Of a stretch of 5,563 bases of DNA, positions 1 through 5,246 are shown piece by piece. The translations under genes were made by a program, and so were the position numbers. Below the pieces are notes generated by a model that worked only from the letters and a program-made list of their open reading frames with translations, was not told where the DNA came from and did not search any database. Position 1 is the first letter of the stretch; every line of letters begins with the position of its first letter. This DNA comes from a virus (lineage: Duplodnaviria; Heunggongvirae; Uroviricota; Caudoviricetes), in IMG/VR virus record IMGVR_UViG_2657244940_000011, one strand, 5' to 3'.

Positions 1-41
1 GGTTAGCCTCTTACGTGCCGAAAGGCAAGGAGAAGCAGGCT

Positions 42-197
42 ATGAAGCAGCAAAAGGCGATGTTAATCGCCCTTATCGTCATCTGTTTAACCGTCATAGT
101 GACGGCACTGGTAACGAGGAAAGACCTCTGCGAGGTACGAATCCGAACCGGCCAGACGGAGGTCGCTGTCTTCACAGCTTACGAACCTGAGGAGTAA
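42..197 (+). CDS. hokD: Hok/Gef-family type I membrane toxin (51 aa; HokD/RelF-like)
   Basis: Translation MKQQKAMLIALIVICLTVIVTALVTRKDLCEVRIRTGQTEVAVFTAYEPEE has the Hok signature (hydrophobic helix, TRK-LCE-R-R-G-EVA-F-AYE) and matches my recollection of HokD/RelF. AAGGAG at 27-32 sits 9 nt before ATG 42; TAA stop at 195-197. The ORF track starts at in-frame GTG 15, which would add a 9-aa extension and is judged less likely. Confidence 0.85.
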   Translation: MKQQKAMLIALIVICLTVIVTALVTRKDLCEVRIRTGQTEVAVFTAYEPEE

Positions 198-265
198 GAG
201 ACCCAGCGGGGGAGAAATCCCTCGCCGCCTCTGATGTGTCAGGCATCCTCAACGCACCCGCACTT

Positions 266-286
266 AACCCGCTTCGGCGGGTTTTT
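266..286 (+). terminator. Intrinsic terminator downstream of hok
   Basis: Hairpin cccgc(268-272)-ttcg-gcggg(277-281) followed by TTTTT (282-286). Confidence 0.6.
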
Positions 287-412
287 CGTCGCATTATGAG
301 GTTGTAATTTTAGCTACCATGAGACTATCCTAAGGATCTCAAACAGATCTATTTTGTATCAAATTTGGTGCATGGCTTTGCCAATAATCGGAAAACAAAA
401 GGACTCATTAGT

Positions 413-592
413 ATGAGCTGCCCACTCAAAAAACACACGCGGTTGAGTATTCCGCCTCGCGATAAAAGCGTTGTGGCAGTCCCTCGCCCAGTGATTGATG
501 AAAACTGCGCACATCGTGAACAAGTGAAAAATGCTTTTGATTTCGGTTTTTCTCGTTATGAGAAAGCCATGGAAGAACTTTCAAAAGTGTAA
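413..592 (+). CDS. Small protein (59 aa) immediately upstream of the Doc-family toxin; candidate cognate antitoxin of unrecognised family
   Basis: ATG 413 is preceded by AGGA at 400-403 (9-nt spacing); TAA stop at 590-592, 10 nt before the toxin ORF. The ORF track extends it to TTG 365 (75 aa), which has no Shine-Dalgarno. Size and position fit a type II antitoxin, but the sequence does not resemble Phd/YefM or YhfG by eye. Confidence 0.4.
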   Translation: MSCPLKKHTRLSIPPRDKSVVAVPRPVIDENCAHREQVKNAFDFGFSRYEKAMEELSKV

Positions 593-601
593 TGATGGGT
601 A

Positions 602-1096
602 TTGTACTCTATGGCTGAGATTGTTGAAGGAGTGCATTACCTTACGGTTGATGATCTTGTTGAAATCAATCATTCCCTAATTGAATTACAGACGCCAGAT
701 GAGCCCGTTGGTGTTCTGAGTCCAGATAACTTAAGTTCTTCTCAGGCCCGTCCCAGCATGGTTCGATGGTATGAACAGACTAATGACATGTTTGTACTGG
801 CATCGGTATTGATTGAAAGTCTGATTCAGAATCATCCGTTTGCTAATGCGAACAAACGAACAGCTATGATGGCTGGTTACGTCTTCTTGTTGTTGAATGG
901 CTATGAGTTAACAGCACCAGGCGATGAAATCGTGGAAATGGCAGAGGGACTGGCCTGCAAAACCTATACTCGAGAAGATCTCGAGAACTGGTTGTGTTAT
1001 TGGTCTCGCGCGTATGACAGCCGGGAATTATGTAAAACAAGCGCAACTATTGTTTTGTATGAAACTATCAAGCTTAAAATAGAACAGCAAAACTAA
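602..1096 (+). CDS. Doc (death-on-curing) / Fic-family toxin
   Basis: The product contains HPFANANKR (nt 833-859), which fits the Doc variant of the Fic motif H-x-F-x-[DN]-[AG]-N-K-R. Start is TTG 602 or ATG 611 (both in frame; upstream in-frame TGA at 593-595); TAA stop at 1094-1096. Confidence 0.8.
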   Translation: MYSMAEIVEGVHYLTVDDLVEINHSLIELQTPDEPVGVLSPDNLSSSQARPSMVRWYEQTNDMFVLASVLIESLIQNHPFANANKRTAMMAGYVFLLLNGYELTAPGDEIVEMAEGLACKTYTREDLENWLCYWSRAYDSRELCKTSATIVLYETIKLKIEQQN

Positions 1097-1296: not shown

Positions 1297-1557
1297 ATGA
1301 AAATCAAAGAATTACGTGAAATTTTTAGTGAAGATGGCCTCTATACTGTGCGCGTTGAGAATGGCGCAATTGTCAGCCACTGCCGTATTAAATGTTTACA
1401 GTCTCAACAAAGGAAGAGTGGAGCTGCGTTAATTCATTTGGTGGATGGGCTTGTGACGGATGGTTTTATTTTGCGTGCAAATGAATTTGTCACATCGTTG
1501 CCGTCTCTGAAAGAAGCTGGGATTAAGGCTGGTTTTTCTGCTTTTGAAGATGAGTGA
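1297..1557 (+). CDS. Hypothetical small phage protein (86 aa), nin-region; sits where rem lies in K-12 Qin as I recall it
   Basis: ATG 1297 is preceded by AAGGA at 1284-1288 (8-nt spacing); TGA stop at 1555-1557. The ORF track starts one codon earlier at TTG 1294. No recognisable motif; product identity not verifiable here. Confidence 0.55.
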   Translation: MKIKELREIFSEDGLYTVRVENGAIVSHCRIKCLQSQQRKSGAALIHLVDGLVTDGFILRANEFVTSLPSLKEAGIKAGFSAFEDE

Positions 1558-1623
1558 ATTCATCTACAATTCAGCGCAGGGCTGAACCCCTGTTGAGTAA
1601 CACTGTGCCACCGGAGAAAGCCG

Positions 1624-1902
1624 ATGGCGCAAAATTCCAGACTACACAATTCTGATAATTCAGCCGCCTTTGCCAGCAGGCACGGGCGGCGCTCTCATGC
1701 ATTCAAATATGACTGGTATCAGCACGATCCCTGCACCGAAGAACAGGCTGAATGGCTGATTCAGCGCTACCGCAGACACGGATACGAGATTAAGAAAGCC
1801 CTCAGCCTCGATTATCGTCTCTGGATAATCTACGTCAGACTCCCTTATTCCGAACGCCCACCGCGTCCGTCCCGCACATTCCAGCAACGCATCTGGAGGT
1901 AA
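1624..1902 (+). CDS. Hypothetical basic protein (92 aa)
   Basis: ATG 1624 is preceded by GGAG at 1613-1616 (7-nt spacing). The TAA stop at 1900-1902 lies 1 nt before the GTG start of the next gene, implying translational coupling. Confidence 0.5.
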   Translation: MAQNSRLHNSDNSAAFASRHGRRSHAFKYDWYQHDPCTEEQAEWLIQRYRRHGYEIKKALSLDYRLWIIYVRLPYSERPPRPSRTFQQRIWR

Positions 1903-1903
1903 C

Positions 1904-2968
1904 GTGCGGGTATTACTTCGACCTGTTCCGGTACCGGAACTTGGGCTGGTGGTGCTAAAACCGGGCCGTGAATCCATGCAGGTATTTCATAACCCTCGAG
2001 TTCTGGTGGAGCCGGAACCGAAAAGCATGCGCGGTCTGCCGTCCGGAGTCGTTCCTGCCGTTCGCCAGCCATTGGCGGAGGATAAATCACTACTGCCATT
2101 TTTCAGCGATGAGCGGGTGATTCGTGCTGCTGGCGGTGCTGGTGCGCTGTCTGACTGGCTGTTACGCCACGTTAAATCCTGCCAGTGGCCACACGGCGAT
2201 TATCATCACAGCGAAACCGTCATACATCGTTATGGTATCGGCGCAATGGTGTTGTGCTGGCACTGCGACAACCAGCTGCGTGACCAGACCTCCGAATCAC
2301 TCGGGCAACTTGCTCATCAAAACCTGTCAGCATGGATGATTGACGTCATACGTCACGCAATCAGCGGTACGCAGGAGAGGGAGTTATCGCTGGCCGAATT
2401 ATCCTGGTGGGCGGTCTGCAATCAGGTGGCTGATGCGCTTCCGGAGTCTGTATTGCGTCGTTCACTGGGATTACCGGTGAAAAAAATCCGCTCCGTATAC
2501 AGTGAGAGCGACATCGTACCGGGAGAACAGACAGCCACCAGCATACTGAAGCAGCGCACAAAAAATATTGCGCTACCGCTTCACGTCCACCAGCACCAGC
2601 AACAGAACCCACCACAGGAAAAGACGGTGGTCAGCATTGCCGTTGATCCGGAGTCACCGGCTCAGTATCTCCAGCGCCAGAAACCACAACGGGAAGAGAT
2701 GCCTGTATACACGCGCTGGGTAAAAACGCAGAAATGCATGACGTGCGGTAATCAGGCAGATGATCCGCATCACATCATTGGTCATGGACTGGGAGGGATG
2801 GGAACAAAGGCTGACGATTTGTTTGTTATTCCGTTGTGCCGTAAATGCCATAACAAACTACATGCCGGAGTAAAAGATTTTGAAGAAAAACACGGCAGTC
2901 AGTTGTTGTTGCTGATTCGTTTTTTAATGCACGCGAGAAATTCGGGTGTTCTGAAGTGGAAAGCATAA
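1904..2968 (+). CDS. DUF968-type prophage protein (YdfU-like) with C-terminal HNH/zinc-finger-like motif
   Basis: 354-aa ORF starting at GTG 1904 with GGAGG at 1895-1899. The C-terminus carries CMTC...DPHH...CRKCHNKLH (nt ~2735-2865), a CxxC...HH...CxxCH-N-x2-H arrangement typical of HNH-like nucleases. It sits directly upstream of rusA as in lambdoid nin regions. Family name is from memory of K-12 YdfU. Confidence 0.75.
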   Translation: MRVLLRPVPVPELGLVVLKPGRESMQVFHNPRVLVEPEPKSMRGLPSGVVPAVRQPLAEDKSLLPFFSDERVIRAAGGAGALSDWLLRHVKSCQWPHGDYHHSETVIHRYGIGAMVLCWHCDNQLRDQTSESLGQLAHQNLSAWMIDVIRHAISGTQERELSLAELSWWAVCNQVADALPESVLRRSLGLPVKKIRSVYSESDIVPGEQTATSILKQRTKNIALPLHVHQHQQQNPPQEKTVVSIAVDPESPAQYLQRQKPQREEMPVYTRWVKTQKCMTCGNQADDPHHIIGHGLGGMGTKADDLFVIPLCRKCHNKLHAGVKDFEEKHGSQLLLLIRFLMHARNSGVLKWKA

Positions 2969-3334
2969 ATGACCGAACGCATAGAATTTGTTTTGCCTTA
3001 CCCGCCGACGGTGAACACTTACTGGCGACGCCGTGGCAGCACATATTTTGTATCAAAAGCCGGGGAGCGTTATCGCCGGGCAGTGGCGCTTATTGTTCGC
3101 CAGCAGCGGCTGAAATTAAGCCTGTCCGGAAGGCTGGCGATAAAGGTGATTGCAGAGCCACCGGATAAGCGTCGTCGCGACCTGGACAACATTCTGAAAG
3201 CACCGCTGGATGCGCTGACGCATGCGGGAGTGCTCATTGATGACGAGCAGTTTGATGAAATCAATATTGTACGTGGTCAGCCAGTATCTGGTGGACGGCT
3301 GGGTGTGAAGATTTACAAAATTGAGAGTGAGTGA
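2969..3334 (+). CDS. rusA: Crossover junction endodeoxyribonuclease RusA (Holliday junction resolvase)
   Basis: 121-aa product with PDKRRRDLDN...DAL...DD...GGRL, matching the RusA catalytic-region pattern as I remember E. coli RusA. ATG 2969 directly abuts the upstream TAA (2966-2968). Confidence 0.9.
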   Translation: MTERIEFVLPYPPTVNTYWRRRGSTYFVSKAGERYRRAVALIVRQQRLKLSLSGRLAIKVIAEPPDKRRRDLDNILKAPLDALTHAGVLIDDEQFDEINIVRGQPVSGGRLGVKIYKIESE

Positions 3335-3897
3335 GCGTAAATATGATATATCCGGAAATTACAGGCAAAAGCGGCGAGCATTTACGCCTAAAAACGCTGG
3401 AAGCAGTCTGGATCCAAGGGCGATTACGGATGTGGGGGCGTTGGTCGTATATTGGCGGCGGTAAGACGGGAAATATGTTCAACCAATTACTGACCTCTAA
3501 AAAGCTGACAAAAACGGCAATTAACGAGGCGCTCCGGAGGATGAAAAAAGCTGGTCTGGACAAACCTGAACTTGAGGCTTTTTTGCGGGATATGATCAAC
3601 GGCAATCAAAAAAGCTGGCTGGCACATTGTACCGATTCAGAGGCGTTAATAATCGACAGGGTTATTGGCGAAGTCCTGGCAGGCTATCCCGGGCTGCTCA
3701 ATGTCCTGAGTCAGCGTTATGTGGGGCGGGGGATGACTAAGCGCAAAATGGCTGAACTGCTGAATGATGCACACCCGGAATGGAGTTTAAGAACCTGTGA
3801 AAGACGCATTGAGCATTGGCTAAAGGTGGCAGAATTTATTTTGTACAAACCAATGGTTATGGCTTTTGGTATAGAGAAAAAAGTTATTGCTTTTTGA
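3331..3897 (+). CDS. Late-gene antitermination protein Q (Q21/QuuD-like family)
   Basis: GTG 3331 overlaps the rusA stop (GTGA); an alternative start is ATG 3343. The N-terminal W-G-x-W...G...LLTSKK pattern resembles what I recall of QuuD. Position after rusA and just before a short leader plus strong terminator matches the canonical Q-PR'-tR' arrangement. TGA stop at 3895-3897. Confidence 0.7.
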   Translation: MSVNMIYPEITGKSGEHLRLKTLEAVWIQGRLRMWGRWSYIGGGKTGNMFNQLLTSKKLTKTAINEALRRMKKAGLDKPELEAFLRDMINGNQKSWLAHCTDSEALIIDRVIGEVLAGYPGLLNVLSQRYVGRGMTKRKMAELLNDAHPEWSLRTCERRIEHWLKVAEFILYKPMVMAFGIEKKVIAF

Positions 3898-4422: not shown

Positions 4423-4673
4423 CCCGTTGAAATTTTTAAATACCTCACAATTCAGGCGGTTGACTGTTGTCTGGTTTGCGGGGAGTTTGTTAAAAGAAAC
4501 TGGCATGGTGAATCCCCCTGTGCGGAGGGGCAATCAGCGACTGGTGTTTTGTCACCGACCCTTATCCTTTCTGTGCGGGTTCAGGTGCTGATACTGAACT
4601 CACCGGGAGGCACCCGGCATCATGCAATGGCACATAGCGCCACTCTCCAGCCCCTCTCCGGAGGGGCTTTTCT
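4423..4673 (+). repeat. Tandem repeat unit A (~250 bp) carrying three conserved GC-rich hairpins
   Basis: Shares with unit B: cccgtt(g/a)aat at the start, ctcacaattcag (4444-4455), TTGAC (4460), gcatggtgaatccccctg(t/a)gcggaggggc (H1, stem 4515-4530), ctgaactcaccgggaggcacccggca (H2, 4594-4619, 26/26 identical) and agcccctctccggaggggcttt (H3, 4649-4670, 22/22 identical). Confidence 0.6.
4650..4673 (+). terminator. Intrinsic terminator (hairpin H3 of repeat unit A)
   Basis: gcccctc(4650-4656)-tccg-gaggggc(4661-4667) followed by TTTTCT. Confidence 0.55.
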
Positions 4674-4861
4674 GTGCCGGATACATCACAGTTTCTGGAA
4701 CCTTAGGTACTACAGTATCAGTCAGGGTGCTATATTTTCAGATGTGATGAAAGCCTGTCAGCAGGCAGGGCGTATCGGAAATGACCCAGTAGAGAAAACG
4801 TTGACTCAGATACCGGTGCTGAGTTACCGGGAAACCGGCATCACATGACCGCTATCCTTCT

Positions 4862-4889
4862 AGGCCCATCCGCTCCGGTGGGCCTTTTT
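4862..4889 (+). terminator. Intrinsic terminator preceding repeat unit B
   Basis: aggccca(4862-4868) ... tgggcct(4879-4885) with an internally paired loop (ccg-ctc-cgg), followed by TTTTT (4885-4889). Confidence 0.6.
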
Positions 4890-4906
4890 ACTGCAGAAAA
4901 CAGGTT

Positions 4907-5160
4907 CCCCGTTAAATGCTATGTTGCTCACAATTCAGTAAGTTGACAGTTGCCTGTCAGACTGGGCATTTGTTAAAAAAATTTCGCATGGTGAATCCCC
5001 CTGAGCGGAGGGGCGACTGGTGACGGTATAATCTCTGATTATCAAAACGAGAATGACGCGGGTTTAGTGGCACCGGGCTGAACTCACCGGGAGGCACCCG
5101 GCACCATGTGCATGATGATACAGATACGCGGCTTTAGCCCCTCTCCGGAGGGGCTTTCTT
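4907..5160 (+). repeat. Tandem repeat unit B (~250 bp), diverged copy of unit A, offset ~484 bp
   Basis: Same three hairpins at nearly the same spacing as unit A (H1 stem 4998-5013; H2 stem 5087-5101; H3 5137-5154), with diverged spacers. Also carries the palindrome tgacag-ttgc-ctgtca (4944-4959) and a perfect TATAAT (5027-5032). Confidence 0.6.
5137..5160 (+). terminator. Probable intrinsic terminator (hairpin H3 of repeat unit B)
   Basis: gcccctc-tccg-gaggggc followed by an interrupted T-run TTTCTT; weaker than the unit A copy. Confidence 0.4.
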
Positions 5161-5166
5161 GTGGGC

Positions 5167-5191
5167 AAAAAAAGCCCGAGTGGGTTCGGGC
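5167..5191 (-). terminator. Hairpin with A-tract on the + strand, i.e. a terminator-like structure for the - strand (or bidirectional with 5137-5160)
   Basis: AAAAAAA (5167-5173) then gcccga(5174-5179)-gtgggt-tcgggc(5186-5191); on the - strand this reads hairpin plus TTTTTTT. No - strand gene is visible downstream within the window. Confidence 0.35.
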
Positions 5192-5246
5192 AACAGCATG
5201 AGATATACATTTTTATAATCGAATGGATTTTAACCAGAATTCATAA

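What the first reader, a model, noticed from the sequence alone, without database searches (positions are those of the whole stretch)
1..286. Hok toxin with a mok-like overlapping open frame entering from the window edge
A second reading frame (positions 2, 5, 8 ...) is open without stops from the left edge to TGA 188-190, overlapping hok (42-197) almost completely in a different frame. This is the arrangement of mok in plasmid R1 hok/sok loci. The mok start and any sok antisense promoter would lie upstream of position 1, so whether the locus is a complete, regulated type I module cannot be decided from this window.
Basis: partly seen in the sequence, partly recalled or inferred. Interest (0 to 1): 0.4.

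Follow-up and report, generated by a model that had tools for sequence, protein, structure and literature searches.

The report
Prophage hokD toxin locus, cut short

Summary
Positions 1-286 hold a HokD toxin gene (42-197; Pfam HOK_GEF, 82.9 bits), its ribosome-binding site, its 3' fold-back element (247-259) and its terminator (266-286). Frame 2 is open from the edge to TGA 188-190, as reported. It has no ATG, GTG or TTG, and shuffles give an open frame 5-17% of the time. The same frame is closed in hokC, the closest paralogue compared.

The window is an entire 5563-bp contig, so the source has no upstream sequence. All 18 nearly identical complete E. coli genomes, and 78 of 81 phage loci encoding the same HokD, carry a full hok leader upstream rather than relE. 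In all 53 phage loci that share window bases 1-41, a TAG whose G is window position 1 closes frame 2. In the same loci the mok-position ATG lies 57 nt before the hok ATG, in frame with hok, as annotated for K-12 mokC/hokC.

So the mok equivalent is frame 3 (3-41), not frame 2. By homology the Sok promoter lies inside the window on the minus strand (28 to 1). The Sok RNA itself lies off the contig. About 74% of complete E. coli genomes carry such a locus, so it is already known and of low interest.

The parts
1..28 (-). Sok antisense promoter, assigned by homology. The -35 box TTGCCT is at 28 to 23, the 17-nt spacer at 22 to 6, and the -10 box TAACC[T] at 5 to 1, with its last base lost at the contig end. 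The predicted Sok start is 7 nt left of position 1.
   Evidence: The Sok 5' end is complementary to mok nt 9, both in R1 (T7 primer sequence in PMC1635323) and in the annotated K-12 sokC. The alignment to hokC and to an R1-type locus places the same hexamers with the same 17-nt spacing. The hexamers are kept or improved in variants (TAATCT, TTGACC). The generic consensus scan did not call it.
3..41 (+). 3' part of the mok-equivalent leader reading frame (LASYVPKGKEKQA), in frame with hok. Its ATG lies 16 nt left of position 1 in relatives.
   Evidence: An ATG sits at -57, in frame with hok, in all 53 loci sharing window 1-41 and in L001. K-12 mokC and hokC share a stop codon, so they are in frame. 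The frame is open from the window edge.
27..32 (+). hok Shine-Dalgarno sequence AAGGAG, 9 nt before the ATG. It overlaps the Sok -35 box.
   Evidence: Read from the sequence. Invariant in the alignment with hokC, hokB and the R1-type locus.
42..197 (+). hok coding sequence, HokD, 51 aa plus TAA.
   Evidence: RefSeq annotation WP_000813254.1 on identical DNA. Pfam PF01848 at 82.9 bits. Identical to K-12 HokD.
2..190 (+). Frame-2 open stretch of 62 codons then TGA. It is the positional counterpart of the R1 mok frame but has no start codon, so it is not a gene. It was called as a partial CDS in the stored record of the contig.
206..225 (+). 3' UTR hairpin (GCGGGGGA GAAA TCCCTCGC).
   Evidence: Minimum-free-energy fold of the full-length surrogate mRNA.
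247..259 (+). fbi, the fold-back inhibitory element. CCUCAA(C)GCACCC pairs with the 5' tac sequence GGGUGCUUGAGG of the full-length mRNA.
   Evidence: In the fold of L001 5872-6288, identical to the window from 6001 on, the first 12 nt pair with these bases. Energy -167.7 kcal/mol, z = -7.1. The element is almost invariant across 81 loci, with rare substitutions, the commonest at the bulged base.
266..286 (+). Intrinsic terminator of hok mRNA (AACCCGC TTCG GCGGGTT then TTT).
   Evidence: Shared with K-12 hokD.

Best explanation
[quoted passage not shown] It sits in the nin region of a lambdoid prophage and is truncated by the end of a draft-assembly contig 16 nt after the mok start codon.

Shown here:
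- The HokD coding sequence, its Shine-Dalgarno sequence, the 3' fold-back element and the terminator are all in the window.
- The first 28 bases are hok-leader sequence, not the K-12 relE junction.
- Every close relative carries upstream a promoter-like region, the tac 5' end, the Sok-complementary hairpin and a mok ATG in frame with hok.
- In those relatives frame 2 is closed by a TAG exactly at the window edge.

Inferred from the R1 and gef paradigms:
- The full-length mRNA is kept inert by tac-fbi end pairing.
- Slow 3' trimming removes fbi and exposes the mok translation start.
- Abundant, unstable Sok RNA, transcribed leftwards from the promoter at window 28 to 1, pairs with that region and blocks it.
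- When Sok decays, ribosomes starting at the mok ATG read through window 3-41 and open the hok start site. A membrane-damaging Hok is then made, either as the 51-aa peptide or as a 70-aa in-frame extended form.

Frame 2 plays no part. Only ribosome transit up to the hok start is needed, so the leader frame is free to differ between loci.
For: - The window equals contig CDRA01000727.1 in full.
- Pfam HOK_GEF at 82.9 bits; annotated hokD on identical DNA.
- The Rfam RF01794 model, which models the hok-sense leader, scores 118.9 bits (threshold 59) on L001 5872-6047. The window holds model positions 114-157, cut at the 5' end. The same model hits K-12 hokC (118.3 bits) and an R1-type plasmid locus (87.2 bits), but nothing in K-12 relBE-hokD.
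- All 18 complete genomes that match window 1-600 at 99.8% or more also match the 171 nt upstream at 99.7% or more overall.
- 78 of 81 IMG/VR loci encoding an identical HokD have the tac sequence.
- 53 of 53 loci sharing window 1-41 have TAG at -43 and an in-frame ATG at -57.
- mokC is in frame with hokC in K-12.
- tac-fbi pairing appears in the fold, z = -7.1.
- The position of the Sok 5' end comes.
- Stop codons in mok downstream of the hok start do not affect hok translation in R1 (PMC9841398).
Against:
- The contig could end there because of an insertion or rearrangement rather than a repeat.
- The generic sigma-70 and terminator scans found no sites in the surrogate locus. The promoter assignment is by homology only.
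- tac and fbi do not vary within this clade, so covariation gives no independent support.
- No expression or toxicity data exist for this locus. Per a preprint's summary, native chromosomal hokA, hokB and hokC loci did not give post-segregational killing.
Confidence: 0.88

Rival explanations
1. One reading: frame 2 is an R1-type mok gene whose start codon lies just upstream of the window. Its translation through 2-190 is what couples to hok.
For: Frame 2 has the same register relative to hok as R1 mok, with an offset of 58, and as K-12 mokB, with an ATG at -58. It ends 7 nt before the hok stop, much as the R1-type frame ends 4 nt before its hok stop. It is open across the whole window.
Against: - A TAG closes it at the window edge in 53 of 53 relatives sharing window 1-41 and in all 18 closest genomes.
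- It has no ATG, GTG or TTG in the window.
- The conserved ATG is at -57, in frame with hok.
- The frame is closed in hokC.
- Chance gives an open frame 5-17% of the time.
- Only 1 of 81 loci has lost the TAG, and that one has a GTG at -70.
Confidence: 0.03
2. K-12-type arrangement: hokD is the third gene of a relB-relE-hokD operon. It has lost its own leader, mok and sok, and is transcribed from the relB promoter.
For: The HokD protein is identical to K-12 HokD. 2 of 81 phage loci have the relE junction. In K-12, relF/hokD is co-transcribed with relBE (PMC3598666).
Against: K-12 is homologous to the window only from about position 28. Window 1-27 instead aligns with the hok leader of hokC, hokB and the R1-type locus and with Rfam model positions 114-157. 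The Rfam leader model finds nothing in K-12 relBE-hokD. No close relative has relE upstream.
Confidence: 0.01
3. The locus in the source genome is a disrupted remnant. The contig ends at position 1 because an insertion sequence or rearrangement has removed tac, the mok start and Sok. That would leave hok untranslated, or expressed without its antitoxin RNA.
For: Contig ends often mark IS copies. In K-12, IS186A lies about 20 bp downstream of the hokC stop. The upstream sequence cannot be seen.
Against: All 18 nearly identical genomes have an intact leader. The break coincides with the right-hand boundary of the most variable stretch of the family, which is what an assembly-graph fork between two hokD copies would produce. 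E. coli genomes with a match have a median of 2 and up to 9 such places. A hok with an intact start site but no Sok would be expected to be counter-selected (inference).
Confidence: 0.08

Closest known systems
hokC/mokC/sokC (gef) locus of E. coli K-12
   Same: It has the same leader architecture: tac, Sok-complementary hairpin, and a mok ATG 57 nt before the hok ATG and in frame with it (mokC = 19 + 50 aa). It also has the same MLNTCR... leader start as the window's relatives. The Rfam leader model scores 118.3 bits there against 118.9 in L001.
   Different: It is a different paralogue, at about 85% nucleotide identity over the coding region. It sits at a chromosomal rather than a prophage site. 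In K-12, IS186A lies about 20 bp downstream of the hokC stop. The frame-2 equivalent is closed by two TAA codons. The Sok hairpin is 18 nt shorter.
hok/mok/sok (parB) of plasmid R1
   Same: The same set of elements is present: hok mRNA with 5' tac and 3' fbi, a Sok promoter with a 17-nt spacer overlapping the hok Shine-Dalgarno region, a Sok 5' end complementary to mok nt 9, and a Hok/Gef toxin.
   Different: In R1, mok is out of frame (offset 58, 70 codons) and runs through hok in what is frame 2 here. Here the start is at offset 57, in frame. The loci are plasmid versus prophage. The Hok proteins are clearly diverged. The leader frame is therefore variable even among plasmid loci.
hokD (relF) of the relBEF operon, Qin cryptic prophage, E. 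coli K-12
   Same: The HokD protein is identical, and the coding sequence, 3' UTR, fbi and terminator are nearly identical. The prophage neighbourhood is the same downstream (rem, ydfU/DUF968).
   Different: K-12 has lost everything upstream of the hok Shine-Dalgarno sequence (tac, Sok, mok start, Sok promoter) to relBE. The window keeps at least 27 more leader bases, including the Sok promoter. Its relatives keep the whole leader.

Membership tests
[quoted passage not shown] | Small (about 50 aa) Hok/Gef membrane toxin ORF | tested here: met
   Window 42-194 scores 82.9 bits against PF01848, cut-off 22. Identical to RefSeq HokD.
[quoted passage not shown] | Structured hok mRNA leader (tac, ucb, mok start hairpin) upstream of hok | tested here: inconclusive
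   The window holds only model positions 114-157, at 24.9 bits (below the threshold of 59) and cut at the 5' end. The full model scores 118.9 bits in L001, which is identical to the window where the two overlap. All 18 closest genomes have the leader.
[quoted passage not shown] | Antisense Sok RNA gene overlapping the mok start | not testable with these tools
   The Sok RNA body lies off the contig. Only its promoter is in the window (28 to 1, minus strand), assigned by homology. The consensus scan gave no call. A predicted Sok stem-loop in L001 folds at -21.5 kcal/mol, z = -3.0.
[quoted passage not shown] | Leader ORF (mok) that starts upstream and is read across the hok start site | tested here: met
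   The frame in register with hok is open from the window edge. An ATG at -57 is present in 53 of 53 relatives. Same as the annotated mokC. The start codon itself is off the contig.
[quoted passage not shown] | 3' fbi element pairing with the 5' end, followed by a terminator | tested here: met
   Window 247-259 pairs with the first 12 nt of the surrogate full-length mRNA. Terminator at 266-286. Nearly invariant in the family.
[quoted passage not shown] | Toxicity repressed by Sok; killing on loss of Sok | not testable with these tools
   Needs experiments. HokD was listed among the controls previously shown to be toxic in a preprint's over-expression assay.
R1-type mok (out-of-frame overlapping ORF) | ATG about 58 nt upstream of hok, in the frame that starts 1 nt before the hok ATG, and open through most of hok | tested here: not met
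   The frame is open in the window but has no start. TAG at -43 in 53 of 53 relatives, and the conserved ATG is at -57.
K-12 relBE-hokD (relBEF) arrangement | relE ends 71 nt before hokD, and the hok leader upstream of the Shine-Dalgarno sequence is absent | tested here: not met
   Window 1-27 differ from the K-12 junction and match the hok leader. There is no Rfam leader hit in K-12.

The most novel reading that the evidence does not exclude
Among prophage loci encoding an identical HokD and near-identical mRNAs, the few bases just left of window position 1 are by far the most variable part of the transcript. These are mok codons 2-5, the stretch complementary to the 5' end of Sok. At least 15 variants were seen. 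In one of the two same-genome pairs examined the two copies differ; in the other they are identical. This may reflect diversifying selection that gives each prophage a private Sok/hok pair, so that co-resident prophages do not protect each other's toxin. The contig break at position 1 would then be a by-product of that variability. A less likely alternative is that frame 2 is translated by some non-canonical route.
Probability: 0.3. Interest if true: 0.35.

Novelty: already known. Interest (0 to 1): 0.1.

Why it matters
It matters little in itself. Full-length hokD-type loci are present in 4021 of 5426 complete E. coli genomes, are annotated by RefSeq, and are covered by Rfam and Pfam. Three points are useful:
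- K-12's relBE-hokD is the rearranged exception, and the window represents the common, leader-bearing form.
- "mok" is not a fixed frame. In the hokC/hokD group it is in frame with hok, so an open out-of-frame stretch across hok should not be read as mok.
- Gene callers can mis-call that open frame at contig edges, as happened in the stored record of this contig.

Tried and rejected
- I looked for the exact source among complete E. coli genomes and phage records. None covers more than 78% of the window. An exact-protein look-up showed that the window is a whole draft contig, so the upstream sequence cannot be had.
- The generic sigma-70 and terminator consensus scan on the surrogate locus found nothing. 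The hexamers (TTGCCT, TAACCT) fall below its thresholds, so promoter and terminator were assigned by homology and folding.
- I looked for tac/fbi covariation within the hokD clade. Both elements are almost invariant, with rare substitutions (the commonest at the bulged base), so it is uninformative.
- The frame-2 peptide gave no hits against Pfam or NCBIfam.
- A tRNA scan of the window found none.
- I considered and rejected the relE-upstream scenario and the R1-type mok reading.

Full report
**Observation.** The window begins ggttagcctcttacgtgccgaaaggcaaggagaagcaggctATGaag. The ATG at 42 opens a 51-codon ORF ending at TAA 195-197. Its product, MKQQKAMLIALIVICLTVIVTALVTRKDLCEVRIRTGQTEVAVFTAYEPEE, scores 82.9 bits against Pfam HOK_GEF, cut-off 22. 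It is identical to K-12 HokD and is annotated hokD (WP_000813254.1) on identical DNA in RefSeq genomes.

That frame contains no ATG, GTG or TTG. An open frame of this length arises in 4.7% of mononucleotide shuffles, 6.0% of synonymous recodings of the hok frame and 17% of codon-order shuffles. An antisense frame (11-175) is open over nearly the same stretch. The frame-2 peptide matches no protein family.

**Where the window comes from.** An exact-protein look-up with the DUF968 protein (1904-2968) returned one contig, CDRA01000727.1 of draft assembly GCA_000947375.1. It is 5563 bp long, so it is the window itself, and no upstream sequence exists in the source. The stored gene calls for that contig list a partial gene at 2-190, which is frame 2, and no call in the hok frame. 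No complete E. coli genome or phage record covers more than 78% of the window. Eighteen complete genomes, several of them named ETEC strains, match window 1-600 at 99.8-100%. I used NZ_CP025916.1 (locus L001, where window 1-600 equals L001 6001-6600) as a surrogate for the missing upstream.

**What lies upstream in relatives.** L001 has no relE. A 291-nt intergenic stretch follows a hypothetical gene. The Rfam model RF01794 ("sok") matches the hok-sense strand, so in practice it models the hok mRNA leader. It scores 118.9 bits (threshold 59) on L001 5872-6047. The window retains model positions 114-157, at 24.9 bits and flagged as cut at the 5' end. As controls, the same model hits K-12 hokC (118.3 bits) and a plasmid locus of R1 type (87.2 bits), but nothing in K-12 relBE-hokD.

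All 18 closest genomes also match the 171 nt upstream of the window, at 99.7% or more over a 771-nt query. Of 81 IMG/VR loci encoding an identical HokD, 78 carry the tac 5' sequence, two have the K-12 relE junction and one has something else. A place covering at least 80% of the 417-nt full-length transcript is present in 4021 of 5426 complete E. coli genomes. Genomes with any match have a median of 2 and up to 9 matching places. The leader-bearing hokD locus is therefore the common form.

**K-12 comparison.** In MG1655, relE ends 71 nt before hokD. Homology between K-12 and the window starts only at about window position 28 (AGGAGAAGCAGGCTATG). Window 1-27 align instead with the leaders of hokC, hokB and the R1-type locus.

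**Which frame is mok.** In R1 the mok ATG is at 116-118 and the hok ATG at 174-176, an offset of 58 with a 70-codon out-of-frame mok (PMC9841398). Window frame 2 has that same register. In L001, however, the ATG at the mok position (5985) is 57 nt before the hok ATG, and so is in frame with it. Frame 2 is closed by TAG at 5999-6001, and the G of that TAG is window position 1.

Among the 81 phage loci, all 53 that share window bases 1-41 have this TAG and the in-frame ATG at -57, and none has an ATG or GTG in frame 2. This is the K-12 mokC/hokC arrangement: the two annotated genes share the stop at 16751, and mokC is 19 + 50 codons beginning MLNTCR, as here. K-12 mokB, by contrast, is out of frame with an ATG at -58. 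In hokC the frame-2 equivalent is closed by two TAA codons.

Eleven of the HokD loci use the third frame: an ATG at -56 opens a 19-codon leader ORF that ends in a TGA overlapping the hok ATG. The leader frame is therefore not conserved. [quoted passage not shown] The mok equivalent in the window is frame 3, positions 3-41, not frame 2.

**Sok.** The R1 Sok RNA begins ACUAGACAU, complementary to mok nt 9-1 (primer in PMC1635323). The annotated K-12 sokC likewise begins opposite mokC nt 9. By alignment, Sok of this locus would start at L001 5993, which is 7 nt left of window position 1.

Its promoter then reads as follows on the minus strand: TTGCCT at window 28 to 23, a 17-nt spacer at 22 to 6, and TAACC at 5 to 1 plus one T lost at the contig end. 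The R1-type locus has TTGCGC, 17 nt, then TATCCT at the same aligned places. Variant leaders have TTGACC and TAATCT. The promoter is thus inside the window, overlapping the hok Shine-Dalgarno sequence (27-32), while the Sok RNA is off the contig. This rests on homology only, because the generic consensus scan called nothing. A 64-nt trial Sok segment of L001, taken from that start, folds into a 5' hairpin and a long stem-loop, at -21.5 kcal/mol and z = -3.0.

**3' elements.** I folded L001 5872-6288, which is identical to the window from 6001 on. The fold pairs the first 12 nt, GGGUGCUUGAGG, with window 247-259, CCUCAA(C)GCACCC. This is the tac/fbi end pairing of the R1 model. The fold also places a hairpin at 206-225 and a terminator at 266-286. 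The energy is -167.7 kcal/mol against -127.7 for shuffles, z = -7.1. Within the hokD clade tac and fbi show only rare substitutions, the commonest being C to T at the bulged base, so covariation is uninformative.

**Mechanism.**
- Shown: the parts listed above and their conservation.
- Inferred from R1 and gef work:
  - The stable full-length mRNA is closed by tac/fbi pairing.
  - 3' trimming removes fbi and frees the mok start.
  - Sok pairs there and blocks it.
  - When Sok is lost, ribosomes entering at the mok ATG traverse window 3-41 and open the hok start, and Hok damages the inner membrane.

Because mok is in frame here, a 70-aa extended Hok may also be made. It still scores 81.6 bits against HOK_GEF.

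**Why the contig stops here.** Column entropy across 63 unique full-length mRNAs peaks at the bases after the mok ATG and falls to near zero from GGTTAGCC, which is window position 1. At least 15 loop variants exist. Of the two same-genome pairs examined, the two copies differ in one (L045 versus L062) and are identical in the other. A genome with two hokD copies would fork the assembly graph at exactly this point (inference). An insertion or rearrangement at the break cannot be excluded, and I give it about 0.08.

**Verdict.** This is a known, very common prophage hok/sok locus of HokD type, truncated by a contig end. The identification as hok/sok with a leader frame entering from the edge is right. 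The assignment of frame 2 as mok and the placement of the Sok promoter upstream of the window are wrong. Interest is low.

Noticed in passing
window 413-1096 (+): Just downstream of hok is a likely type II toxin-antitoxin pair. A 59-aa ORF with no family match (413-592) is followed by a Doc/Fic death-on-curing toxin (611-1096; NCBIfam DOC_P1 127.9 bits, Pfam Fic 45.7 bits). This insert is rare: only 80 of 5426 genomes cover at least 80% of window 1-600. K-12 has rem directly after hokD.
   Followed up: partly
L001 5978-5999 (window -22 to -1, off contig) and the 80 IMG/VR loci: The stretch around the mok start, especially the 4 nt after the ATG, which pair with the 5' end of Sok, is the most variable part of otherwise near-identical hokD transcripts. 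At least 15 variants were seen. Of two same-genome pairs examined, one has two different loops (L045 versus L062) and the other has identical loops. This may mean private Sok/hok specificities.
   Followed up: partly
e.g. L062 around 1444-1503: 11 of 81 HokD loci have the leader ATG at -56. That gives a 19-codon upstream ORF whose TGA overlaps the hok ATG (AUGA). It is a third way of coupling, alongside in-frame and R1-type out-of-frame mok.
   Followed up: partly
The published R1 offset is 58. Its R1-type frame is closed by TGA at -52.
   Followed up: partly
window 2-190 (+): The gene calls stored with the source contig list a partial 62-residue gene in frame 2 and no call in the hok frame. 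This is an edge-of-contig annotation artefact.
   Followed up: yes
window 1-47; L001 5872-6047; L004 502-654; L086 182-353: Rfam RF01794, named 'sok antitoxin', matches on the hok-sense strand from the tac 5' end to the hok ATG. In practice it detects the hok mRNA leader rather than the Sok orientation.
   Followed up: yes
window 4474-4679, 4718-4891, 4957-5166 (+); 5167-5221 (-): There are two strong copies and one weak copy of the sRNA family STnc100 (138, 28.5 and 165.5 bits), downstream of the Q-like gene. On the opposite strand is an AsxR match exactly at its threshold (63 bits), overlapping a weaker AgvB match. Both are sRNA families described from Stx prophages.
   Followed up: no
window 206-287 (+): The hok 3' UTR (hairpin, fbi and terminator) gives a weak sub-threshold match to the IsrK sRNA family (26.7 bits, threshold 50). 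The same is seen in K-12 hokD. It could be chance or distant common origin.
   Followed up: no
window 180-183 (+): The Tyr47 codon of hok is UAC followed by G (UACG). A preprint states that hokC, hokD and hokE mRNAs show A-to-I editing that recodes this Tyr to Cys, analogous to the TadA-dependent editing of hokB (10.1101/2025.08.07.668861). Not tested here.
   Followed up: no
window 1297-3897 (+): The rest of the contig is a lambdoid prophage nin/late-regulation block: rem, a 92-aa ORF, DUF968/HNH, rusA and a DUF1133/Q-like antiterminator. It is about 93-94% identical to the ETEC prophages, while the first 600 bp are 100% identical, which suggests mosaic recombination.
   Followed up: no
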